DNA from: Paraspadella gotoi
Taxonomy: Eukaryota; Animalia; Chaetognatha
Assembly: GCA_051294375.1 (NCBI GenBank)
Contig: JBJCIZ010000033.1
Span: forward strand, 64,450 to 92,168
Direction: 5' to 3'
Length of the DNA stretch: 27,719 nt
The translations under genes and the position numbers were made by a program. Shown here one piece after another: positions 704 through 27,050 of this stretch. Positions within the stretch are counted from its first letter, which is position 1, and each line of letters begins with the position of its first letter. Below the pieces are notes generated by a model. The model had not been told where the DNA came from, ran no database searches, and saw only the letters and a list, made by a program, of their open reading frames with translations.

Positions 704-1335
704 TTTTTAGTCGGATCTGCTTATTAGCAGATTCCGACTCTATAATTCACTTTGTCGGTCCGTCGGTCCCACCCCTAAATCTTGTCGGTAAATCATTATT
801 ATCACTTCAGAACATCATATTATGCTAAATTAAGCAAAAAAAATGATGTCCGTCCAGCCGTCCTACTGTCTGTCTGTTTGTCTTTCTGTCTGTCTGTCTG
901 TTTTTCTGTCTGTCTGTCTGTCTCTCTGTCTGTCCGTCCCCCCTTAGCAAAAAACTTTAATTACTCGTGATTGGATGGTTGGATTGGAATGATATTTTGT
1001 GTGTGGGTAGGAAAATGTGTGAAAAGCTGGATATAAAGTTTCAATGGAATCGTGCGAGTGGAAATGAGTTTAAATGGAAAGAACATAAGTCCCAATAACT
1101 TAAATATTTTTATTAATTTTAACCCATAATTACTAGAATTAATCATAATTGGATAGATTGTGTTAAAATTAGTTAAAAGTAAAAAAATTATATATATTAA
1201 AAAAATGATGCATATTGAAAGATTGTTGCAAGCTGAAAGAACGATGCAAGTTGAAAAACTGATGCAAGTTGATTTAGCTGATTACCGCTTAATTATCGTG
1301 TGCAGATCCGACATTGTTTGCTCAAACTTGTTTTT
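704..1335 (+). mobile_element. Non-autonomous Helentron-associated element (HINE/DINE-1-like), copy 1
   Basis: In order: T-run; 5' subTIR GTCGGATCTGC (710-720) folding with GCAGATTCCGAC (727-738); (GTCY)n microsatellite (~848-940); 18-bp TGCAAGTTGA repeats (~1214-1272); 3' subTIR GCAGATCCGAC (1302-1312); small hairpin GTTT-GCTC-AAAC; T-run. A homologous copy is at 18591-20029. Confidence 0.8.
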
Positions 1336-1530: not shown

Positions 1531-1800
1531 TTCACCTTCTTCCTCATAACTCTTTCTCCAGAGCTCATAGAAAACTACTAGTGGCATAACTTGATGCGCA
1601 TGCGCGGCGGGAAATAGACGGAGGCGCCGGATGCCGCTTGACAGGGACGAGGAATGCCTTCAGTGCGAATGTTTAACCCACAGATCATCACCGTGATCAT
1701 TCAGTGAAAACCTAGAAAAGGCAAAACATTTTTCGCTCGTGACTTTCGCGACGCGTATTCATAGTGTACCTCCGTGGGGAAATTCAGCGTTTTGTTTTCT

Positions 1801-2610
1801 TTGCGCAATTCCGTGCTTCCTTGGCGCTCTTCCGTAGCGCATTTCCGTAGCGCACTTCCTTGCGCACTTCCTTGCATCCTTGGAACTCTTCCCCTAGCAC
1901 ACTTCTATTGCGCACCTCCCTGCTTCTTTGGCACTCTTCCATAGCGCATTTTTGTAGCGCTCTTCTATTGCGCACCTCCGTGCTTCTTTGGCACTCTTCC
2001 ATAGCGCATTTCCGTAGCGCACTTCCATTGCGCACTTCCGTGTTTCCTTGGCACTCTTCCATAGCGCATTTCCATAGCGCACGTCCTTACATCCTTAGCA
2101 CTCTTCCGTAGCGCACTTCTATTGCGCTCCTCTGTGCTTCCTTGGCACTCTTCTGTAGCACATTTCTATAGTGCACTTCTATTGCGCACTTCCGTGTTTC
2201 CTTGGCGCTTTTCCGTAGCGCATTCTTCCATAGCGCAACGTTTACATCCTTAGCATCTTCCGTAGCGCACTCTATTGCGCTACCTCCCTTTCTCTTTGGC
2301 ACTCTTCCATAGCGCATTTTGTGTAGCGCTCTTCTTATTTGCGACCTCCGCTGCTTTTCTTTGGCACTCTTCCATAGCGCATTTCCGGTAGCCACTCCAT
2401 TGCGCACTTCCGTGTTTCCTTGGCACTCTTCCATCACCGCATTTCCATAGCGAACGTCCTATAACATTCCTTAGCCACTCTTCCGTAGCGCCATTCTATT
2501 GCCTCCTCGTGCTTTCCTTGGCACTCTTCTGTAGCACATTTCTATGAGTGCAACTTCCTATTGCGCCTTTTCTCAAGTGTTTCTTGGCGCTTTTCCGTAG
2601 CGCATTTCTG
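1801..2610. repeat. GC-rich higher-order satellite: 60-bp unit built from ~13-bp (RTWGCGCACTTCC-like) monomers plus an 8-bp monomer
   Basis: Lines starting at 1921, 1981 and 2041 align column by column. 2101-2224 recurs at ~2478-2607 with many 1-nt indels. Confidence 0.92.
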
Positions 2611-5149: not shown

Positions 5150-5411
5150 CAATTTACTTTATATTTTACACATAGAGTCCCAACTACATCAGATATTGAT
5201 TTCTTAAGCTCCGAGTGATGGCACTTAACCAGAGTGGCTGATACAGTGTGAATTAAGAAAAAAAAATTTTTACAGCATCTTAAAATAGCTTTTATTAATT
5301 AAGGTTAAAAATAGGTCTTGTTAAACTGCTGTAGTTAAATGGCCATAAAATAATAAAGATAATATGGCGTAGTAAATATTTCTATATGGAGTTCTTCATT
5401 TTCTTTGCAAT

Positions 5412-5671
5412 CCCATGGCAGATTCGAACACCTGGCCAATTTGAAACCCTGGCCGATTTGAACCTCTGGCAAATTTTAACCCCAGGCCGATTTGAATCAT
5501 TGGCCAATTTTAACTACCGGTTAATTTGAATCCCTTGGCAGATTTGAACCCCTGGCCGATTTAAACCTCTAGCCTATTTTAACCCCTGGCCGATTTGAAC
5601 CACTGGCTGATATGAACCCCTGGAAGATTTGAATCCCTTGGCAGATTTGAATCACTGGCCGATTTGAACCC
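5412..5671. repeat. 20-21-bp minisatellite (CCCCTGGCCGATTTGAA core), ~12-13 copies
   Basis: Recurring TGGC(C/A)(G/A)ATTT(G/T)AA at 20-21 bp spacing. Confidence 0.92.
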
Positions 5672-7554: not shown

Positions 7555-7720
7555 ATGGAAGGTAGGAAAAAAGAGGCATTTGAAAAGTAAGATAGATGGA
7601 AGGTAGGAAAAAAGAGGCATTAGAAAAGTAAGATAGATGGAAGGTAGGAAAAAAGAGGAATTAGAAATGTAAGATAGATGGAAGGTAGGAAAATAGTAGA
7701 AAAGATGGAACTATGGAAGG
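7555..7720. repeat. 41-bp tandem repeat (TAGAAAAGTAAGATAGATGGAAGGTAGGAAAAAAGAGGCAT), ~3.5 copies
   Basis: Near-identical units at 7580-7620, 7621-7661 and 7662-7693. Confidence 0.9.
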
Positions 7721-8036
7721 TATGAAGATAATAAAAAAGTAAAAAGTAAGAAAGATACGCGCTAAGATAGAAGATAATAAAATAAAAACGGAGAAATGGA
7801 AAGACAATGAAATAAAGAAGAGACAAGTGAATGAACGACGGAGGAAGAAAAAAAATGACGTCGTTGATTCGAGTAAGAAAAAGAAAAAAAGAAAAAAAAA
7901 GAAAGAAAAAGAAGAGAAAAAGAAAAGAAAGACAAAGATTCAATCTTTCTCTGATTAGTTTTTCATATTCTCCCACAAGACTTGGTTGTTTTGGCTGCAT
8001 GTAAATTGTATGTCTCTCGCGCAGACAGAGACTCAC

Positions 8037-15439: not shown

Positions 15440-15775
15440 CTTTCTCCATTCTCTAATCCACTTCTCTATTCTTTAATCCTCTTTCTCCATTCTCTAATCT
15501 TCTTTCCCCATCTTCTAATCCTCTCTTCCCATTCTCTAATCCTCTTTCTTTATTCTCTAATCCTCTCTCCCCATTCTCTAATTCTCTCTCCCCATCCTTT
15601 AATCCTCTTTCTCCATTCTCTAATCCTCTTTCTCCATTCTCTAAACCTCTTTCTCCATTCTCTAATCCTCTCTCCCCATTCTCTAATCCTTTCTCCCCAT
15701 CCTTTAATCCTCTCTTCCCATCCTATAATCCTCTTTCTCCATTCTCTAATCCTCTTCTCCACCTTCTCCCAGCCC
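15440..15775. repeat. 21-bp minisatellite (CCATTCTCTAATCCTCTTTCT), ~15 copies
   Basis: Read directly. Explains the RIREW repeat ORF on the - strand. Confidence 0.93.
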
Positions 15776-15925: not shown

Positions 15926-15958
<33 letters not shown>

Positions 15959-16220
15959 TTTTCCTTTTTTTCTGCTTTATCCTGATCCCAGAGTGGAGCT
16001 CATAGCGCGCACAGAAGGTTGGTGAGTCATATACTCAGCTCTCGCGCGAACGCAGCCGTAGACCGGAGCGGCGGCGTGCGGCTTCCCGATCGACTCACTT
16101 CTCCTTCCGGGCTTCTTCCGCTCGGATCGGGGAGATTTTCTCTCTCTCGATGGTGAGTCGGGCTTCTTCCGGTCGAAGTCCGAGCGGATCGGGCCCGGAT
16201 TTCTCTCTCTCTCTTCTCTT

Positions 16221-16253
<33 letters not shown>

Positions 16254-16705
16254 TTATTTCTCTTTATCGTCTCGGTCGGTCGTCAGTGTAGCGTCAGCGA
16301 ATATCACTATCTTACTCTTTTTCTTTACTGCTCACTCTCTCTTTTTCTTCCCCTTTTTTTAATGATTGTGATCTAAAAAAAATATATTAAAAAATTAAAA
16401 ATTGTAGAAGCTCATCTGCTAACAATAAACAACGACAAACGACGACGACGATGACAACGACCAAATCGTTTCAATACGAATCCACCACTTGACGTTAAGT
16501 GGGTCAACCTATTTGAGCCACTTAACCAATACAATTGTTTTCTCGCCTTTAGTTAGTTTTGACCGTGAATTGTGTTTACCATTGTTGTGGACTTTTACTC
16601 TCTGTTTTGGCTCATGATTTTCGAATCATTACACCTTGATAAAAAAATACGGAAAACTTTTCTTAATTTTCAAATGAATAATCTCGCCAAGTTAGTCGCC
16701 TCACA

Positions 16706-18563
16706 ATGTCCAAATCTCCGAGGGAAAAATTTATTCAAGAATTTAATCGTCTGGCTTATACTCCGAAAATCTGTACATAGGTGTAATTGTGATAGACAGA
16801 CCACGAAAAAGTCACTTTAATCGAAGGCGATCCTAATTTAAAAACTGGATAGTTTTTGAAAATTCTGCTCCTATTTTAAAATCATGGTGCCAACGACAAA
16901 AAATATCAAATTCATCCAAAGAAACTCCTGCTGGGGTCAAATATTCGTTGCCAAAAATCCCCGCTGGTGGAATAAAAGAAATTTCCTGGGCAACATTGGA
17001 AATTCTTTGGACAAGGGTCATGCGAACAGTTCTTCCTGAACGTAAAGGGATGATGGGCTATGACAGTCTTCGGTGAGTATTAAATTCAATAACTGTCTTT
17101 ATCGTAGTATGAATGGTATAGTTTATATCCTCTTTCCTTACTCTTTAAAATTCCTAAAAACGATTTTTATCTACAATGACCTTGATTTAATCATGTAAAA
17201 TAAAAAGTGCAATGCCTTTAATTTTTTTTTTATTTAAACAATAAGAAATTACTCTTTTATACCAGTAAATCGGCCAACAAACCAGAATTTCTTCCAGCCG
17301 ACTGCATCTGGGCAGGCCCTACAAAAAGAAAGGAAAGCCATGAAGCTTCAAAAATGACACCAAGTGAATTTTTTGAAAATGAAAAAAAAGTATTAGAAGC
17401 GGCCTATAAATATGCTGGATATGATCCAAAAACCTATGTATCTCAAGAATCAACTTCAAAATCATTTTTGCCGGAACCCTTTCGAATTCCACTCCCTATT
17501 TTAGATCATCCAGCTACACCAGGAATTTCAAAGGCACCTGCTCCAATACCTAAACATAATATGTTAAATTTGGTTTTTCCAAGTCCGCTTAGAGGTGAAT
17601 TCTAGTAAAGTAAATTCTCTCCATCTGTAATTTTGTCTGAATGTCTGTTCCACGGTCTCCTGCTTGTTCTCAGTTTTGTATTTTGTTTTTGTTATTGTGG
17701 TTTTTGATGTTCTTGTATATACTTGCTCGTCCCTCTCCCATAGGGTCTTAAATTTTGTACTGTAACTTTTTTAATTTTCTACTTTTCTACTTTGAAAGGA
17801 ATTTATCTTTTCGAAAAAAAATTGTTATTATTTAATAATTAATATTTAATTTTTAAAACCTTTTTCAATAATAATTTACCTCAAAGTTAAAAACCCATTA
17901 TTCATACATTCTAATCAGCATCATCTCCTATTGAAGTTCAAACTGATCGACCCACTTCGCCCTTTTTTCGTGGGACAAATCTCCACCAAACAACGTCGAC
18001 AAGTCAAGTTTCACCATTTTTTGGAGGAAACAGATTTACTTTTCCAAAACCACCATCGAATCCGGTTTCGTTACTTCCATCAACATCTGGTTCGATTCGA
18101 CAACCTTCCCCAAATAATTTGACCAACGAAAAATCTTATCGCTCTTCATTAGGCGCTAGAGAACTAATTAGTCATTAACTCACTAGATAAGGCAAAACAA
18201 ACTGGGCCTCGCTGTGTAAATCACTTACAATCAATTGGGATGTTATGTACAAAATGTAATTTCTTTTTTTGCAAAGCTTTATGCATGAAAATTGTTCCTG
18301 TCATTGGCTTGTTGTGTGATCTTTGCGCAAAAAAAGCTATTCTTGAAGCGCAGGAAGAAAGTCGAGAATACGTTGCTCCAGGAAACGAAAAAAATCAAGA
18401 GGATGATAATGATAGTGATTATGAACCGAGTGAAAACCATGTAGCCAAAAAGTCAAAATTTAAAGTAATCTCGGATGTTTTCACCTGCGATCTTTGTCAA
18501 AAAACTTTTAATCGAAAAGGCAATCTGAAGCGTCATAAAAAATCCATGCATAACTTGGATTGA
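16706..18563 (+). CDS. Spliced gene encoding an NRF1/EWG-like DNA-binding domain, a Cys/His cluster (B-box/AN1-like) and a C-terminal C2H2 zinc finger
   Basis: Intron 17073-17265 (GTGAGT..ACCAG) joins YSLPKIPAGGIKEISWATLEILWTRVMRTVLPERKGMMGYDSL-R-KSANKPEFLPADCIWAGP...LEAAYKYAGYDP in frame. A phase-1 donor lies at 17595. The last exon has CVNH-x7-CTKC-x4-CKALC-x10-CDLC and FTCDLCQKTFNRKGNLKRHKKSMH. The 5' end (16706-16852) and the ~18170 junction need either frameshifts or alternative introns. Confidence 0.7.
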
Positions 18564-18590
18564 AATACCATAAGTTCTTTTAATATCGCC

Positions 18591-20029
18591 TTTATTACCC
18601 AGCTAAAATTCTCTATAATTCACTTTGTCGGTCCGTCGTTCCGCCCCCTCAATATTGTCGGGCACACACTTATATCATGTCAGAACATCGAATTATGATA
18701 AATTATGCAAAAAAAATGATGTCCGTCCGTCCGTCCGTCCCACCTTAGCAAAAAAATACAATTACTCGTGATTGGATGGATGGATTGGTATGAAATTTTG
18801 TGTGTGGGTAGGAAACTGTGTGCTTGAGATGGATATGAAGTTTCGATGGAATCGTGCGAGTGGAAATTGGTTTAAATGGAAAAAATAAAAAAATCTATTT
18901 CACTATTTGAACGCCAATTGCTCATGAGTGGATAGGGCAATTGACTTAAAATTTTGTATGATGGTAGGAAAGTGTGTGATTGAGCTGGATATAAAGTTTC
19001 GATGGAATCGTGCGAGTGGAAATGAGTTAAAATGGAAAAAACAAAAGTCATATTTACTTGAAGTATTTTTACTTAAATTTACTCATAAATATTATGTTTA
19101 TTAAAAATTGGATAGATAAACCGAAGTTGAATTTTGTATGTGGGTAGGAAATTATGTGATGTAGGATTTGAACCTGCGAAATTCTTTCCACGAATTATTG
19201 GTGACGTCTATCGGCCAAGACCGATATATATATTCACTTAGAAATCACTTCGATATGTTTTAATTCAATTTCTAATTAATTTTAAAATAATAAAAAATGA
19301 GTGACGACTCGGTCTCGAACTCGGGACCCTTTATCCACTGGGTATTCATTAACCATCGTCGCCACCACTGAAGTTTATAAACTAAATCGTTTTTCTCTAT
19401 TTAATTCTTTTATCTTTGGTTTTCATAAACAAATGAACAATCTGATTAAATTCGATTTATCAGCTGATTCCTCTAGTAGATATCCATTCCATCTAGCTTC
19501 TAAATCTTATTTACAAACTATAGAACTCGCCGGAACTACTTGGCAATATTTTACCTATGAGTAGTCTCAACAATCGTTTCACTATTTTCATTATTATTGA
19601 TTGTTATGATTAATCCAATGATTAATTACATTATTGTTATTTCATATAGATATTCTAATTGCTTGATGGCAGAAGCAGATGGAATATCTATATGCTTTGA
19701 TTATTTTATTAAGGTTCTCTTTTATGCTAATAACTAAATAAGTTGGTTACTAAAACTTTTATGATCAACTCTGGAGACTACTCCCTTTTTAAACTCGGTC
19801 GAAGCTTCGCCTCCCGATTCCTTTACGCCACGCGCGCCAAATTTGGCGTAGCTTCCGGTCAACGTCCGGTTGACCAAATTATCTTAATTGATCAAATTAT
19901 GTCAGTTGACCAAAATATGGCAGTTTACCAAATTATGCAAGTTGATTAAATTATGCAAGTTGACCAAGTTAGCTTATTACCACTTAATTATCGTAGGCAG
20001 ATCCGACATTGTTTGCTCAAACTTGTTTT
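18591..20029 (+). mobile_element. HINE/DINE-1-like element, copy 2 (expanded), nested between the two transposon genes
   Basis: Homologous to 737-1335 from CTCTATAATTCACTTTGTCGGTCCGTC (18611), with (GTCC)n at 18720-18740. Internal ~170-bp block repeated (18765-18885, 18930-19045, partial 19110-19160). 18-bp TGCAAGTTGA repeats at 19870-19965. Same 3' end GCAGATCCGACATTGTTTGCTCAAACTTGTTTT (19997-20029). The 5' subTIR is missing or diverged. Confidence 0.8.
19301..19366 (-). other. Degenerate tRNA-like / Pol III A-box and B-box segment (similar segments at ~19158-19225 and ~20101-20176)
   Basis: Minus strand reads GGTGGCGACGATGGTTAA...CCGAGTTCGAGACC...GTCGTCAC followed by T6. Not a canonical cloverleaf. 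Confidence 0.4.
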
Positions 20030-20432
20030 ATTAAGCGTAACCTTTTTTCAATATATGCACATTTGGTTGACTGCTTTTAAAAAATTCATTAAAAAAAATT
20101 GGTGGAACTTGAACCTATAACTTCTAGAATGGTAAGAGTGGTAAGAGTGCTCGTTATCATTTCGCTAAAAAGCCACAGATTTTATTCAGAGGCAAACAAT
20201 TGATAAAAACCTTTTGGTCGTTTCAAACCTTGTGATTTAACATTATTCTATCCTTTTATCTATCAAATTTACATGTACTAATATTGATTAATATCCGATG
20301 TTTTTAATTTTGCCTTTTTTTAAGTTTAATTGCTTTACTCCACTAGGTTAAAATTATGTAATAATAATCGTTTCACATAAACATTGCTTCAATCTCCGTG
20401 GCATACCGAATTCTAAACAGCTCTCTATTCCA

Positions 20433-23400
20433 ATGGCGTCTTCTTCAAAATCAATTTACCACAGTTTATATATTCAAAAACTAAAGGATAACAATCATTA
20501 CTGGCTGCTTGATAAAAACGTTTTAGTGATACGAGACTTAGACAAAAATGGTCGTATTGGACGAAAAGCCATCGTCATCACACCTCATTCTTTCACGGTT
20601 GAGACCCAACATGAAATTCAAGAAATAATCTTAACTTGCTCATGTGATCTTAGTAAAAATTCAGCAAAAATTATTGCCGAAGCTCCATCTGTATTTCCTA
20701 CCCGCGAAGCTCTTAAAGAATTCAGCCAAAGTAGAAAAAAAGAATACTGCATTCACGTTAACGTTGCTACTGACCAAAATTTTAAAATTCATCAGCAAAA
20801 GTCGTATTCAGAAATATTGCGGAAAAATGATATCGAATACAACGTGGATGGTCCTGTTGCTTTTCTTTCTGAAAAACCTAGACTTATTGCAGTTAATGAT
20901 GGGTTGACTTGGTCAATTTTAGCTCCATATGGCGTGAAAAGTGGTTTATGTTGTTGTGCATCAAGTTGCAAAGACTTATCTAACAAATGTTCTCATGTCC
21001 AAAAATATCTAAATTTTTGTAGTGATATGGACGAGGATCCAGAGGTTTTTCAAAAATGTGATGACGAACCTGAAATCTCTATTAAGTCCTGGAAAAAAAT
21101 TCCTTTTTTCCCTCTCTCAGAAAATTTAAAAGAAAAAATGCATAACTTAGCTTCAGGGTTCGAACATTGGCCTTCCGAACTTCGACCCGACGCCGAATCC
21201 TTTGGAGGCAATTGCAGTTGTACAAATTCCCATCCGTGGGTAGATCAGATTAAAATTGGAACAGCAAAAATCTTTACTCCTTTGACCATAATCAGTCAAA
21301 CATTTGTCGACAACGAGATTCGTGACATTAGTGTTTTTGTTGGAGTAACAAACAGGTATTAAAAGATTATTTAATCTTGAAAAAATTTATAACTATTATA
21401 CTAAACTTTGAAATAAAGCGCTGCAGTTTTATTTAAACAAATCATGACAAAATTATGATATAGACGTGCATAAAATATTTTTACTAAAATAATTACTAAT
21501 CTTTTAATTACACTGTAATATTTATGTGGGATAATTCTTTTATTTTGTTGTGTAGTGAAATTAAGTGAAAAAGTTTGAGTTATGTTTCAACAACTAATTT
21601 ATTTTCAATAGAAAACGGACATGTTTCGACTTTAGTTTTCAAGCCTTCATCAGCGTTTAACAATTTCTGAAACAACTTTGCCCCATTGTTAAAAAAACTC
21701 AGACTATCTGTCCTTACCTGTCGTCACCACTGACCACTATTCTTTCTCGACTCTGTGTTGAAAAAATTTTACTTTCTCTCCCCCTCTTGTTTTTCACAAT
21801 TTCGCTCAATATTTTCACAAATTGTTGAACAGCAGAAACATGAATTTTCTATTAAAAATAAAAATTCGTCGTTTAAACAAAAATCTAACTCGCTCTCTCT
21901 CTCTCTCTCTCTCTCTAAGTTTCACTTCTTTTCACAACTTATTCAATCTGTCCTCACCTTGACCTGTCCTCTCATCTGACCACGAAAAAGAAAGGATTAC
22001 TTCAATATTCTCCCACCGTATTTATATTAGTTCATCATTTTTAATTATGAATATTTTTAATACCTGTATTGTGAAAGATGCAATTGTAAGCTAAATCCGG
22101 ATGGCCAAGAATTCGCATTGTTGAACATAAATAACCATTACTTCATAAGTTATTCCACTTTAACTCTCTTTCTAGCAATAATGGGTCATGGTACGCCCTC
22201 TTTCAATTTGTTTAACAATATTTTGCACACAATGTATGATTGGATTTTAAAAAAAAATCCAATAAAAATAAATTACATGTACAGACTAGTTCGAAACGCA
22301 TTTTCAAAATTTCTCGATCTTCTTGAAATAAATACAGGAAATCATCTGGGGTGCCCACACGAAAAAGAAATCGATACTTGTCCGTCTTACATCGCCGATG
22401 GTCAGTATAAGTTGATAGTAGGCAAAATGATTTTTTTTTAACTTAAAAGTTAATAAAAAGTTTAGACGAATTATCATGCATATCCGGTTTTAAAAAATAT
22501 CCAGACACGTTTCGAACTCTGAACTATTGAGAGCATCTTGTAGTAATTGGTACCTTTTCGCCACGATTTAATTTTTGAAATTATTAATTTTTTGAGAAAA
22601 TATTCCCGATGTGGGCTAAATTAATTTTCTTGGTTTTTTTCTTTCTTTCGCTTTATTTTCTTCCTTGGTTTTCTTTTTTTACATATTTTCTCTCTCTAGT
22701 TGTTGCTTCCATACTCTTTTTCTCGTTCAATGGTCAAAATTATTCTGACCTCTGCTGACCTTAACTTATGAATGCTTTTTGATGTTTGTTCTCGTAATTT
22801 TTGACATTCCTAAATCTCAGTTTGAAATATGTTGTAATATATCTTCTAGAATAGCGAATACAAGATGATAATCAATATAATTTTTTTTTTTCAAAAAAAA
22901 AAAATCATTTTGCTTTCTCCAGGTACTCAAATGGGGCCTAATGGTTTAGCAATTTCTAACAAATATTATCTAGATCCAAGTAACATTCCTCATTGTGATC
23001 AAGAAATTTTGGTTGGCAGCCGTGTTGAACGAAGAATGATCAACGAAAAATCTTTAAGAGAACAACTTGACAGTTTTTCTGGGATACGTTTAACAGGAGG
23101 GCAAGATATTAATGACCATACAAAGTTTCTCACTCATGAAGAATATAAAAGTATGATTGCTAAAATGAAGACCGCAAGTAAGGATTCACTCCTCCACTGC
23201 ATAGCTGATTTTACTCTAAAAACGCATGATTTTGAGGAATCTGATAAAATTAATTGTCGAAACGATTTCAAATGTCTTTATAGCGAATTATCAATTTCAA
23301 ATCAATCTGCATTAGGTTTCCTTCAAATTCCCTCCACACAAGAGAGAAATTTTTTGGTGGGGATCGCTTCTTGGGATTATGGTTCAATTCTCGAGAATCC

Positions 23401-24352
23401 AGATGCCCTTCAAAAATTGCACAACATTTCTCCAGTTCTGTTTAATGCTTATAAAGGAATTAGATCTGTTGAAGAAGAAAAATCGTTTGCAAAATTAATC
23501 GGGTCTTTATATAATATCTATAGAAAATGTTTTAAACACGGAACTCAATGGTTTGAAGTCGACTCTGAAGTATCAATCTTTGACTGTGAGACCTATGTGG
23601 CAAGTGGACGTAAGAAAGTCAGAAACATTCCCAGCTATATTAGTTCCCGAAGTGACTCAAAGGAAAAATCTTGCAAGAAAGCTCCTTACAGTACAAATAA
23701 TATGTGCGGTACTTTTTTTTTAACCTGTTGCCATGGTTATTTTATTACAAGCCTTTTAATGCAGGTAGATTAATATAATTTTTGTATAATAGCACTTGCT
23801 TTGAGTTCAATCCCTGGAAAAGAGCATTTTTTACAGTTATATCATAACTTGATCAAAATTAGTATATAACCTTTTTTTTTATTAACTTAACGTACAGACA
23901 CGGGAAAATCCCATGATTTTACTCTACATTTTATTATCATACTTTCGCAAGATGCCAAGGACAGTCATTTATGATAATGCATGCAATGCATGGTAAGTTT
24001 TAAGTTTGTTATGATTCCTTTTGAAAAATTATTGGTTTAGAATAATAATTTCATATTTGATAATAGCGAATACATTGCCAATCGAGAGCCAAATTTTCTC
24101 AAAACGGGTCGACTGGTAATCGACAAAATGCACATAAAAAATCATGCCGGGTGCTCACGTGGTTACAACTCTGCGCTTTATCCCGAATTAAACGAGACGA
24201 ACACGCAGCTGTGTGAGCAGCTAAATTCTGAACTAAAAAAACTTAACGCTATGGTCTGCTACTCGAAACCAAAAACAGCGTGGAAAATAATAACCACGTA
24301 TATGTGTTTAAGAAATTACATTCGTAAAAGAACTGATACTTCCGTGGCTTAA
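20433..24352 (+). CDS. KDZ (Kyakuja-Dileera-Zisupton)-family DDE transposase, 5 exons, ~822 aa, apparently intact
   Basis: Exons 20433-21355, 22078-22400, 22923-23764, 23898-23992 and 24067-24352 total 2469 nt; all introns GT-AG, frame preserved. Motifs: SWIM-like CSC...CIH and C..C...CSH; CxC-type Cys clusters; IADGT (first D); GTFFLTCCHG; REN(P); VIYDNAC (second D); NREP; IDKMHIKNHAGC; NTQLCEQLNS (E). The exon 2 acceptor is the least certain. Confidence 0.9.
21353..22066. mobile_element. Insertion with 12-bp terminal inverted repeats (CAGGTATTAAAA / TTTTAATACCTG) that coincides with transposase intron 1
   Basis: Perfect IR at 21353-21364 and 22055-22066; flanks are AA and TA. The left IR contains the donor CAG|GTATT. 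Confidence 0.55.
21613..21658 (-). ncRNA. Minimal type I hammerhead ribozyme (Penelope-like-element type)
   Basis: Minus strand: AAACG CUGAUGA A GGCUU-GAAAACUA-AAGUC GAAA C-AU-G UC / CGUUU. Stem I is perfect (5 bp), the core is intact, stem II has 5 bp, stem III is minimal with palindromic ACAUGU, and the cleavage triplet is GUC. Confidence 0.75.
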
Positions 24353-27050
24353 AACACTAATTGTCGCCGTTTCATTCAGATACAAAATTAATAATCAATC
24401 GTCAATGGTTCAATTCTTTATTTATTCATTTTTATGCCAAAAAAATGTTTCCCATTCTATAAAAGATTATTTGTGAATTTTTTCAAATTGTTACTACATA
24501 TTCGTATGTAGATTTTTATATTTTTGGTTGTTTTTCATTGCGTTATTTACTGTACAGTAAACTGAAACATTTAAAAAAAATCTTTTAAATTGAAGGAAAA
24601 TTTAAAAATAAAAAATCACCAGACTACCCTACTTTTAGTCAGTTAGTTGCTTCAATAAAGCCAAATACTAACTCAAATACAATTTCTTGAAGAAAAAGAC
24701 TCCCGGATCCGCGCGAACCCATGATCGATCCGCTCGGAGGCAGAGAGAAGAGAGTCGGCGGTGACGAGGGTAAGAGAGAGAGTAAAAGAGAAGTCAGCTG
24801 CGGCTCGACCGATCGACTCTGTCGTCGCGCGGATCCGGGAGATAGGAGAAGAAGAGGAAGAGGAGTAAGAAGAGCCGAGCGAAGTAAGTCGAAGGCAGGA
24901 AGCCGCTCGGCCGCGCGCGCGGCTGCCTCCCGGAGGCTGCGCTGTACGAGGCCTTCTGAGTCATAGCCATGAGAGAGAGAGAGAGAGAGAGAAGGACGAG
25001 AGAGAGAGAGAGCCGACGAGGGTCGGGCGATGAAAAGTTTTCCAACGACGATTTGTGGAAGGAGGCAATCGAGTAATTTATGGCGTCACTAGAAGGAAAG
25101 AGAGAGGAGGACGGAGGAAGAGGAGGAGGAAGACGGAAGAGAGGAGCATGAGGAGATCAGCGAAGGGTAGCAGCGGAGGAGGAGCGAGGAGAGAGCGCAG
25201 GATGAAGGCAGGAAGAGGAGGAGGGAGAAAGAAGACGAAAGGGAGGGATAAATGGCTCCACGCATGGACAAATAAAGGGAAAGAAATTCTAAACATATAG
25301 GAGACGAAAGGCGGTTGTCGGCGAGAGAGAGAGAGAGGAGAGAGAGAGAGCAGAGACGAGCGAGAGAGAGAGAAAGAGCAGAAGAAGAGAGAGAGACGAG
25401 AGAGGAGAGAGAGAGGACTGTGGTAAAGGGCGAAAAGAATAAGATCCAGGCGCGGATGAAGATTATTTTTCTATGATAATGATTTTGTCATATGTATCTT
25501 ATATTGTGATTCATATAAAATTGTTAAATCATTCCATTAATTAAGTCAACAACCTAACCTAACTGCTCTTGTTAAGTCCATAAATCTCTACAGATAATAA
25601 CATAGCAAGGCCCTGCATGCCTGTTATTAATTGTTATATATTAATGTAACTCCCTGATATAGTACAAATTAACTTTGTAGAATGCTTAGATTTTTTCGTC
25701 AAACCTGAGCCTCCTGGTTCCATAACCTAGTGAAAGTCAAAGGGAGAAGTAGGCTATAAAACAAATGATAATTAATGATAAAACCAGAATACATGATTTA
25801 TTATGATGAAATGGTTAAGGAGAACAATAAAGAAGGGTTATAAAAAATGCACATAAATTGAAATGGAAGAAGGTTGATAAAAGAAGCGGGAGATGACGGC
25901 GAATGAGTTAGAATGATTCGAGTATGAATGTTAAATGAACATCTGCGATTGAATGTGAGACGTTCGTGGAAATGTCTGGGGCGTGTAGATCGGTGACGGA
26001 AACTCATTCGTGAAGTATTCGAATCCTAGATTCGTAGAAGAAAACTGGTTGAGCCGAATAAGCCAGGGTCGTCACCTATTGCTCTCTCTCTCTCTCCTCG
26101 TCCTCTCTCTCTCTCTCTTCTTCCTCACTCTTGCCAGGGTGCATTGTACTGTTCAATTCAAATTCAACTTCACTCTCTTCTCTCAGAAGTGAACAAATTG
26201 GTATTAGAGTGATTGTTGAAAACTGAAAAATTTTAGGAAATCTTAAACAATTTTTAGCATATAAAACATAAAAATAAAAACCCAATAAAAATACCTTTTG
26301 GTAAATTTTATTTTTAATTTATACATTAGTGGCACCACGTGAAGCTCTATATATAATTTTTAATTATTATGTATAATAATAAGTATATAATAAGCTTAAA
26401 ATTTCAAATGCAAATCTTAAATTTTCAGATCGGATTGATGCAAAAGTTGACTATAAGAAAGTATATAAATCCATAAGTTGCGTCTAAAATGTAAAAAACT
26501 ATATTTAAGACAAAGATTTTCAATTTCGAAGCTTAAAAATATATTTTTTTATAATTTTAACTATTTAAGACTAATTTTTTAAAAAGATCTATTTCTTTAT
26601 CAACTTTTAACGAGGAATCTGAACTGTCCAGAATAAAAAAAACATATTTTGAAATTTTGACATTATATACTATATATACAAAATAAGCTGACTGGGCTTT
26701 GTAAAAAAAGAAAAATAATTATAGATTAGTATTCATTTATATGATAGTTTTCAAGATATAACTGCTAAATATTGATTCCAAACTTTCACTTCATCCTATT
26801 GTGTATCTCTGGCGGATTTTTGTTATTGGCTCAGAAACTGACTAAATCTTTTTCAAAACTATTACTAAAATGAGGAGACAATTCGAAAAAAAAGTCATTT
26901 TTTTAGTGAATCATAACACAATTTTTTTTTTACTTTCTTATAATTACCCGGATTATTAAATCGTAAAACAGACATAGTTTGTGACAAAAAATTACTACAT
27001 TAAAATAAATTTACATTTTTTGAATCAAAGTGGAATCCAGGGCAAAATCT

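What the first reader, a model, noticed from the sequence alone, without database searches (positions are those of the whole stretch)
15999..24973. Two-gene KDZ transposon pairing an intact transposase with an NRF1/EWG-like DNA-binding partner gene
Seen: two co-oriented, intron-containing, AT-rich genes form a nearly microsatellite-free island between two GC-rich termini that share inverted motifs. Known: KDZ/Zisupton elements encode CxC/SWIM-bearing transposases, and fungal ones often carry TET/JBP cargo; Harbinger and CACTA elements use a separate DNA-binding gene. Inference: this is a bipartite KDZ element whose accessory protein derives from the NRF1/EWG-like fold. I do not recall this pairing being described.
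Basis: partly seen in the sequence, partly recalled or inferred. Interest (0 to 1): 0.85.

Follow-up and report, generated by a model that had tools for sequence, protein, structure and literature searches.

The report
Intact KDZ transposon with partner gene
This 9-kb stretch of a repeat-rich eukaryote genome holds an intact KDZ-type transposase gene and a second intact gene that likely belongs to the same jumping element and would act as its DNA-binding helper, possibly a distant relative of the animal gene regulator NRF1.

Summary
Between two GC-rich ends (CA at 16001, TG at 24971) lie two co-oriented intron-containing genes.

The downstream gene is an uninterrupted 805-822 aa KDZ transposase. 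Three unnamed relatives match it at 50-66% and pass Pfam's KDZ cut-off.

The upstream gene looks broken in the window, but runs from three studies all lack the four indels, so these are assembly errors. It encodes about 445 aa, ends in a C2H2 finger, and intron 1 is spliced in one contig. It has 11 unnamed relatives.

Read depth puts both genes near single copy and the ends at high copy. A deletion derivative joins upstream-gene DNA to the right end, so that gene likely lies inside the element.

The NRF1 label is not confirmed: no significant sequence or fold match was found, and only single exons could be tested. It rests on a by-eye resemblance, a compatible helix layout and a weak Atlas lead. 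No target-site duplication was found, and co-occurrence in other genomes could not be tested.

Two-gene KDZ elements are already published (Cryptococcus KDZx1). The scan noted a broken KDZ plus NRF1-like pair in another genome (e1-6728510). Verdict: new variant of a known kind.

The parts
16001..16198 (.). Left end of the element: begins CA, GC/CpG-rich, carries repeated short motifs shared with the right end; followed by a CT run (16199-16268)
   Evidence: One X5 contig identical over 16091-16193 has depth 847 against 12 for the genes. The depth-based edge estimates fall at 15972-16026, plus one at 15928 in the skipped repeat; the exact base is inferred.
16706..17072 (+). Partner gene exon 1 (ATG at 16706): helix-strand-strand-helix pattern by eye, then the first helix of the putative DNA-binding domain; three assembly indel sites and one substitution in the window
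17073..17265 (+). Partner intron 1, 193 nt, GT..AG, phase 2
   Evidence: Joined in one contig of run X7; an X2 DNA contig (16962-18009) spans it unspliced
17266..17594 (+). Partner gene exon 2: conserved family core (KPxWLP-like, WxxPT/SK and FxxNxxxVLxAAYxxxG motifs), then a Pro-rich tail
   Evidence: 11 relatives at E 1.8e-14 to 1.7e-6; motifs; model pLDDT 68.9. The donor at 17594 is inferred.
17919..18563 (+). Partner gene exon 3 (acceptor 17919 or 17937): Pro/Ser-rich linker, PHD/FYVE-like Cys cluster, acidic stretch, one C2H2 zinc finger, stop; one assembly indel
   Evidence: PF00096 E 9.6e-6, above cut-off; FYVE_2 E 0.016, weak; frame open after the read-shown difference; splicing to exon 2 is inferred, not seen
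18611..20029 (.). Nested very high-copy repeat, DINE-1/HINE-like, 5'-truncated and composite; not part of the two genes
   Evidence: 83-87% identical pieces at window 738-1334; summed contig depth above 10^6 in X1 and loose ends at 18611 and 20029; features compared with PMC4067079 passages
20433..21355 (+). Transposase exon 1 (first ATG assumed), with two SWIM-like Cys/His motifs seen by eye
   Evidence: no SWIM hit in Pfam
22078..22400 (+). Transposase exon 2 (possible 51-nt in-frame intron 22234-22284): CxC4-like region, ends in the first catalytic-type Asp
   Evidence: PF18717 E 0.0012, below cut-off
22923..23764 (+). Transposase exon 3: insertion region and the CCHG motif
23898..23992 (+). 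Transposase exon 4, with the YDNAC motif
24067..24352 (+). Transposase exon 5: DxxHxxxH and NxxxCEQxN motifs, stop
   Evidence: PF18758 E 0.001, below cut-off alone; relatives 69-74% identical pass the cut-off
24632..24971 (.). Right end of the element: multi-copy from about 24632, GC-rich from 24691, ends TG, followed by a GA run
   Evidence: target of the 18253-to-24632 joint

Best explanation
The stretch 16001-24971 carries an intact KDZ transposase gene and an intact second gene, and it is likely the full-length master copy of a cut-and-paste DNA transposon whose second gene would encode a DNA-binding helper that is probably a distant relative of NRF1. Shown: both reading frames are open; partner intron 1 is spliced in one contig; the ends are shared with many other genomic copies; partner DNA is joined to the right end in a shorter derivative. 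Inferred from known KDZ biology: the transposase cuts and pastes DNA bounded by these ends and has mobilised the shorter non-coding relatives in trans. Inferred and untested: the partner dimerises through its N-terminal strand-pair region, binds the repeated GC-rich subterminal motifs with its second domain and zinc finger, and helps load or express the transposase, as the Myb protein of Harbinger or TnpA of En/Spm do (recalled). It would read a different sequence from NRF1, because NRF1's three base-reading residues appear changed.
For: Transposase: 805/822 aa without stops, with DG, CCHG, YDNAC, DxxHxxxH and CEQxN motifs; relatives 50-69% identical over residues 452-801, and the printed P0001 alignment has no gap at the last two introns; 3 of 3 scanned relatives pass the Pfam KDZ cut-off; X1 contigs match 20006-21879 and 21954-24631 with no difference. 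Partner: 3 of 3 laid runs (three studies) lack the four indels, giving a 445-aa frame; intron 1 joint GT..AG in X7; 11 relatives keep its core, and 8 of the 8 with upstream residues have R or S at the position that a phase-2 AG acceptor gives. One element: joint 18253 to 24632 in X2 and X5, about 5 and 2 times gene depth, landing inside the right end in the same orientation; ends share motifs beyond chance; CA..TG termini as reported for Kyakuja. NRF1 link, weak: exon-2 model of loop, two short helices, long helix, short helix fits the published NRF1 DBD layout; a PF10491 cluster ranks 4th at 0.79 in the Atlas; motif resemblance by eye rests on recall.
Against: No significant NRF1 match in any test of single exons or relatives: Pfam, PDB sequence and profile. 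In the Atlas a GTF2I-repeat cluster (0.81) ranks above the NRF1 cluster and all scores are under 0.9. Neither end has a full NRF1 site. No 5-10 bp target-site duplication for any boundary pair tested. The full-length copy is near single copy and carries nested repeats, which also fits an immobile locus. The 18253-to-24632 joint is absent from the X1 and X7 columns, rests on one contig per run with 37 letters on the short side, and came from the 85% laying. X7 is only guessed to be RNA and also holds intron-covering contigs at depth 2-3; no transposase splice joint was among the 15 of 446 joints listed.
Confidence: 0.55

Rival explanations
1. The second gene does belong to the transposon, but its core is not NRF1-derived. 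It is a separate small domain (GTF2I-repeat-like or undescribed) that only resembles NRF1 in a Pro/Trp motif, and its DNA or chromatin binding comes from the Cys cluster and C2H2 finger.
For: No PF10491 hit in 13 of 13 search hits; the 16-sequence profile does not find NRF1 in the PDB at E up to 10; the GTF2I cluster outranks the NRF1 cluster in the Atlas; NRF1's base-reading residues are not kept, by a recalled alignment.
Against: All tests used half of the putative domain, because intron 1 splits it. By eye the resemblance runs in order over about 170 residues, including an N-terminal helix-strand-strand-helix block like the NRF1 dimerisation domain (layout). The GTF2I score is also under 0.9.
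Confidence: 0.24
2. The locus is an immobile, host-kept gene pair, or the upstream gene is captured cargo with no role in transposition. The high-copy ends belong to short elements moved by another transposase.
For: Both genes are near single-copy depth in runs of studies P1 and P2; no TSD; several repeats have inserted in non-coding parts while both frames stay open.
Against: Both ends are present and shared with near-identical multi-copy sequence (X5 contig, 0 differences over 103 nt, about 70 times gene depth). Partner DNA has been copied with the right end. The 8 of 11 partner relatives looked up are ENA-only and unnamed, with none in NCBI, which is unlike a conserved host regulator (weak evidence).
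Confidence: 0.14
3. The two frames are one transcription unit driven from the GC-rich left end and alternatively spliced, as in En/Spm (recalled), so the partner's first exon could be fused to the transposase.
For: Same strand; only about 400 bp lie between the nested repeat and the transposase ATG; no AATAAA or ATTAAA signal between the partner stop and the nested repeat.
Against: The one acceptor open to the transposase ATG needs a phase-0 donor, while the partner's donors are phase 2 and 1. A bridging 64-nt exon at 19650-19713 is possible on paper but lies in multi-copy repeat sequence and has a poor donor.
Confidence: 0.07

Closest known systems
KDZx1 of Cryptococcus deneoformans (Zisupton-type KDZ; PMC11588098, passages read)
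   Same: Two reading frames; transposase with KDZ, CxC4 and SWIM domains; second protein of unknown function; no TIRs detected.
   Different: 6.4 kb with 8-bp TSDs and shown to move. Here 9.0 kb (about 7.5 kb without the nested repeat), no TSD found, movement of the full copy not shown. Whether its unknown protein is related to this partner was not tested.
Kyakuja, Dileera and Zisupton elements carrying TET/JBP genes (Kojima 2025, PMC12730594; abstract and passages)
   Same: KDZ transposase plus a second gene inside the element; Kyakuja-1/2_LB have CA..TG termini and no TIRs, as here.
   Different: The second gene there is a dioxygenase, and TSDs are 7 bp (Kyakuja) or 8 bp (Zisupton, Dileera). 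No TET/JBP gene was seen here.
Zisupton elements of Pristionchus and fish (PMC9297572 passages; Bohne 2012 not read)
   Same: Multi-exon transposase gene, element of 8-9 kb; in Pristionchus no TSD could be detected either.
   Different: The passages read describe one large protein (1166-1367 aa) and TIRs, and mention no separate partner gene.
NRF1 / EWG / P3A2 transcription factors (Pfam PF10491; PMC10810270 passages and section 16)
   Same: Apparent layout of an N-terminal helix-two strands-helix block, a linker, then helix, long loop with short helices, long helix, short helix (exon-2 part modelled; the rest by eye).
   Different: No significant sequence or fold score. Base-reading R206, N242 and R244 appear as E, G/H and T/S by a recalled alignment. 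The partner adds a Cys cluster and a C2H2 finger and sits in a transposon.
PIF/Harbinger Myb/SANT protein and En/Spm TnpA (two-protein DNA transposons)
   Same: Functional model: a separate DNA-binding gene beside the transposase and repeated subterminal motifs. The Nuwa two-protein layout is stated; the mechanism is recalled.
   Different: Unrelated transposase family and unrelated DNA-binding fold; binding is untested here.

Membership tests
KDZ transposons | Transposase with the PF18758 KDZ catalytic domain and D-D-E-type motifs | tested here: met
   Last exon alone E 0.001, below cut-off; relatives 50-66% identical pass the cut-off; motifs present (their catalytic role is recalled)
KDZ transposons | N-terminal CxC cysteine cluster | tested here: inconclusive
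   CxC4 E 0.0012, 19.1 bits against a cut-off of 26.9, on exon 2 alone
Zisupton-type KDZ | SWIM domain ahead of CxC4 and KDZ | tested here: inconclusive
   Two SWIM-like motifs by eye in exon 1; no Pfam SWIM hit at E up to 1
KDZ transposons | Target-site duplication of 7-8 bp (4-8 bp in Cryptococcus KDZ2/3) | tested here: not met
   No 5-10 bp direct match for left edges 15990-16005 against right edges 24964-24979; 4 bp not tested; the right flank is a GA run and the assembly has errors nearby
Zisupton/Dileera | Terminal inverted repeats | tested here: inconclusive
   Imperfect match of about 20 nt at the tips and shared motifs in both orientations; no long TIR among the 25 longest of 889 pairs listed
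Kyakuja | 5'-CA..TG-3' termini without TIRs | tested here: inconclusive
   CA at 16001 and TG at 24971 are present, but the exact edges are inferred and no tree against named KDZ clades could be built
Active DNA transposon | Multiple dispersed copies sharing the ends | tested here: met
   Ends and deletion derivatives are multi-copy by contig depth and joints; the full-length two-gene form is near single copy
NRF1/EWG/P3A2 | Significant match to PF10491 or to the solved NRF1 chain | tested here: inconclusive
   No hit for single exons, relatives or their profile; the domain is split by intron 1 and the joined form was not submitted; Atlas lead 0.79
NRF1/EWG/P3A2 | DBD fold (three helices, long linker with two short helices) | tested here: inconclusive
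   Exon-2 model has a compatible order of elements; fold searches on half domains gave no clear match to anything
NRF1/EWG/P3A2 | Base-reading residues R206, N242, R244 and binding to GCGCATGCGC | tested here: inconclusive
   Residues named. By a recalled, by-eye alignment none of the three is kept; no tool alignment was possible. No full site in either end.
NRF1/EWG/P3A2 | Homodimer through the N-terminal strand-pair domain | not testable with these tools
   That region is frameshifted in the window and the complex tool reads table 11 only

The most novel reading that the evidence does not exclude
An undescribed lineage of KDZ transposons encodes a dedicated partner built on the NRF1 two-domain plan, retuned to read the element's own GC-rich ends. 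The NRF1 fold would then be a transposon-borne module, as Myb/SANT is for Harbinger, and the host NRF1/EWG factors could have exchanged domains with, or come from, such elements.
Probability: 0.4. Interest if true: 0.75.

Novelty: new variant of a known kind. Interest (0 to 1): 0.52.

Why it matters
How KDZ transposases find their ends is not settled, and the extra genes of the published mobile Cryptococcus KDZ elements have no predicted function. This copy has both genes intact, both ends, and natural deletion derivatives that show which sequences are kept, so end binding and the need for the partner can be tested directly. If the NRF1 link holds, it ties a fold known from a small family of host regulators to mobile DNA and bears on where that fold came from. 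It also shows that assembly errors can hide such a partner as a pseudogene.

Tried and rejected
No whole genome is held, so other copies and empty sites could not be searched.

Homologue searches. Word-seeded searches found nothing for transposase exon 3 or partner exon 1; both were limited to longer proteins, so this is weak evidence. Scans for flanked relatives gave no locus: transposase patterns in metagenome, viral and prokaryote contigs (one search confirmed 1 of 18 stretches but returned no locus) and partner patterns in viral contigs. Of 13 hits, P0015 and P0021 were dropped as repeat proteins matching through many short stretches.

Reads. No run is on record as RNA. X7 is a guess, so expression level cannot be judged. 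Intron 2 of the partner was not seen spliced, and one X7 contig runs 16 nt past its predicted donor.

Rejected readings. That the partner is a pseudogene. That the ends carry canonical NRF1 sites. That the long inverted matches between the flanks are TIRs; nearly all are CT/GA runs.

Literature. Searches for the pairing found no paper: 10 of 17 listed, nrf1 count 0 in all 10; 0; the term was read as one joined word; listings with unrelated titles; 6 listed, one KDZ paper; 0. Iyer 2014 was not held. Repbase entries and the papers' supplements were not seen and may describe such elements.
Full report
Setting. The window is AT-rich eukaryotic DNA full of CT/GA microsatellites, with assembly gaps. 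No genome is held. The host is probably an animal, inferred only from the repeat types.

The observation. The interior 16301-24690 has 0.5% microsatellite cover against 9.3% and 3.6% in the flanks, and 33% GC against 57% and 60% at the two ends. The ends are related beyond chance: inverted alignment score 66, reached by 2 of 300 shuffles; shared 7-mers 19 inverted (3 of 1000 shuffles) and 22 direct (0 of 1000). They look like clusters of subterminal motifs with an imperfect match of about 20 nt at the tips, starting CA at 16001 and ending TG at 24971. No 5-10 bp target-site duplication exists for any boundary pair tested; the right flank is a GA run.

The transposase. Five or six exons from 20433 to 24352 with GT-AG introns give 822 or 805 residues without a stop. 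Single exons hit CxC4 (E 0.0012) and KDZ (E 0.001), both below cut-off. The last exon found three unnamed ENA proteins at 69-74% identity. All three pass the KDZ cut-off. With their five cluster mates they align to the spliced model at 50-69%, and the printed P0001 alignment shows no gap at the last two introns. The motifs DG (398), CCHG, YDNAC, DxxHxxxH and CEQxN are present; reading D398, D705 and E761 as the catalytic triad is recalled knowledge. Two SWIM-like motifs in exon 1 are by eye only. X1 contigs match 20006-21879 and 21954-24631 with no difference; the X2 contig over the latter stretch shows 4 gaps whose places were not listed.

The partner gene. In the window it is frameshifted. 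Three runs from three studies all show the same four indels and one substitution at full share, so these are assembly errors. Corrected, exons 16706-17072, 17266-17594 and 17919-18563 give 445 residues (439 with the other acceptor). One X7 contig skips exactly intron 1 (GT..AG), whereas an X2 DNA contig spans it. This shows a spliced form. X7 is only guessed to be RNA and also has intron-covering contigs at depth 2-3, so the level is unknown. Intron 2 is inferred. The C-terminus has a PHD/FYVE-like Cys cluster (weak hits) and one C2H2 finger above cut-off.

The partner family. A full HMMER search of 1.84 billion representatives with exon 2 gave 13 hits; I dropped two repeat proteins and kept 11. 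All 11 keep the helix motif and 10 of 11 keep the two Trp/Pro motifs. All 8 that have upstream residues carry R or S where a phase-2 AG acceptor would put them, which points to a shared intron. The 8 of 11 looked up are unnamed, ENA-only, and on contigs of 0.5-2.4 kb, so their neighbours are unknown.

One element or two neighbours. Contig depth is a rough guide only. Both genes sit at about 100 (X1), 200 (X2) and 6-17 (X5). The right flank is similar (91, 239, 11), and the left flank is about half in X1 and X2, where allele differences appear. The full two-gene form is therefore near single copy. The ends are multi-copy: one X5 contig identical over 16091-16193 has about 70 times gene depth, and the left-edge estimates from depth fall at 15972-16026, plus one at 15928. 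A joint from 18253, inside partner exon 3, to 24632, at the inner edge of the right end, stands in X2 and X5 at about 5 and 2 times gene depth, with 38 other letters between; it is absent from the X1 and X7 columns. The 95% laying shows the same loose end in X2 and X5, and a linked 18037-to-18144 deletion. The simplest reading is an internally deleted derivative that was copied a few times, which puts the partner inside the mobile unit. A DINE-1/HINE-like repeat is nested at 18611-20029, and more repeats lie in transposase intron 1.

The NRF1 question. By eye, and from recall of NRF1, the first 180 residues follow its plan in order. The published layout is a dimerisation domain with two strands between helices, a linker, and a DBD of three helices with a long loop and two short helices. 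The exon-2 model (pLDDT 68.9) shows loop, two short helices, long helix, short helix. No tool confirmed homology. Pfam gave no PF10491 hit for exons or 13 of 13 hits. PDB sequence and profile searches missed NRF1, and fold searches on half domains were uninformative. The Atlas ranks a PF10491 cluster 4th at 0.79, below a GTF2I cluster at 0.81 and an unnamed, mostly Basidiomycota cluster at 0.84; all are leads only. These tests were handicapped because intron 1 cuts the domain in two. NRF1's base readers R206, N242 and R244 appear changed by my recalled alignment, and the ends hold no full NRF1 site. I put NRF1 descent at about 65%.

Mechanism. Most likely this is the master copy of a KDZ cut-and-paste element that has mobilised shorter relatives. 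The partner would dimerise, bind the subterminal motifs and help load or express the transposase. The open frames, the intron 1 joint, the multi-copy ends and the derivative are shown. Mobility of the full copy, DNA binding and any contact with the transposase are inferred.

Comparison with what is known. Two-gene KDZ elements are published. Cryptococcus KDZx1 has a SWIM-CxC4-KDZ transposase, an unknown second protein, 8-bp TSDs and no TIRs, and KDZ1 carries further unknown genes (PMC11588098, passages; bioRxiv 10.1101/2025.05.19.654958, passages). Fungal Kyakuja, Dileera and Zisupton elements carry TET/JBP genes, and Kyakuja has CA..TG ends (PMC12730594, abstract and passages). Nematode Zisupton elements are multi-exonic with no TSD detected (PMC9297572, passages). 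PMC12062965 (passages) does not mention Nrf1. No paper linking KDZ elements to NRF1 came up; Iyer 2014, Bohne 2012, Repbase and supplements were not seen. The scan's notes record a broken KDZ plus NRF1-like pair, head to head, in another genome (e1-6728510) and several KDZ elements with other partner genes; I could not check these.

Verdict. A real, intact two-gene KDZ element with an unnamed partner family: new variant of a known kind. The most interesting claim, NRF1 descent with a role at the ends, is plausible but unproven. Interest 0.52.

Noticed in passing
window 712-1334 and 18611-20029: DINE-1/HINE-like repeat family at very high copy: matching subterminal inverted 11-mers, a 5' hairpin, a GTCC/GTCT microsatellite and a T-rich 3' flank. 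The copy inside the element lacks the 5' hairpin and is composite.
   Followed up: partly
window about 21613-21983 (transposase intron 1): High-copy repeat pieces inside the intron (bin depth about 10^4 in X1 against 100), with a 41-nt inverted pair at 21655-21695/21790-21830.
   Followed up: no
window near 17229 and 17686: Short repeated pieces inside partner introns 1 and 2, seen as loose ends in X5 and X7.
   Followed up: no
window 16426-16992: The 5' leader and start of the partner gene are at 2-5 times gene depth in X2, with joints 16573-16641 and 16461-17768, suggesting left-end deletion derivatives.
   Followed up: partly
window 1797-2608: Tandem array of about 60-bp units, degraded in its second half as in error-prone gap filling.
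   Followed up: no
window 5404-5671, 7555-7739, 15450-15760: Further short tandem arrays of about 19-40 bp units.
   Followed up: no
window 25417-25586: The right flank differs from contigs of three runs at several letters and 11 gaps, so the assembly is also error-prone there.
   Followed up: no
P0016 residues 18-100: The top Atlas look-alikes of the partner core are unnamed clusters, mostly Basidiomycota (0.84, 0.79). They may be fungal relatives, possibly the unknown second genes of fungal KDZ elements; a lead only.
   Followed up: no
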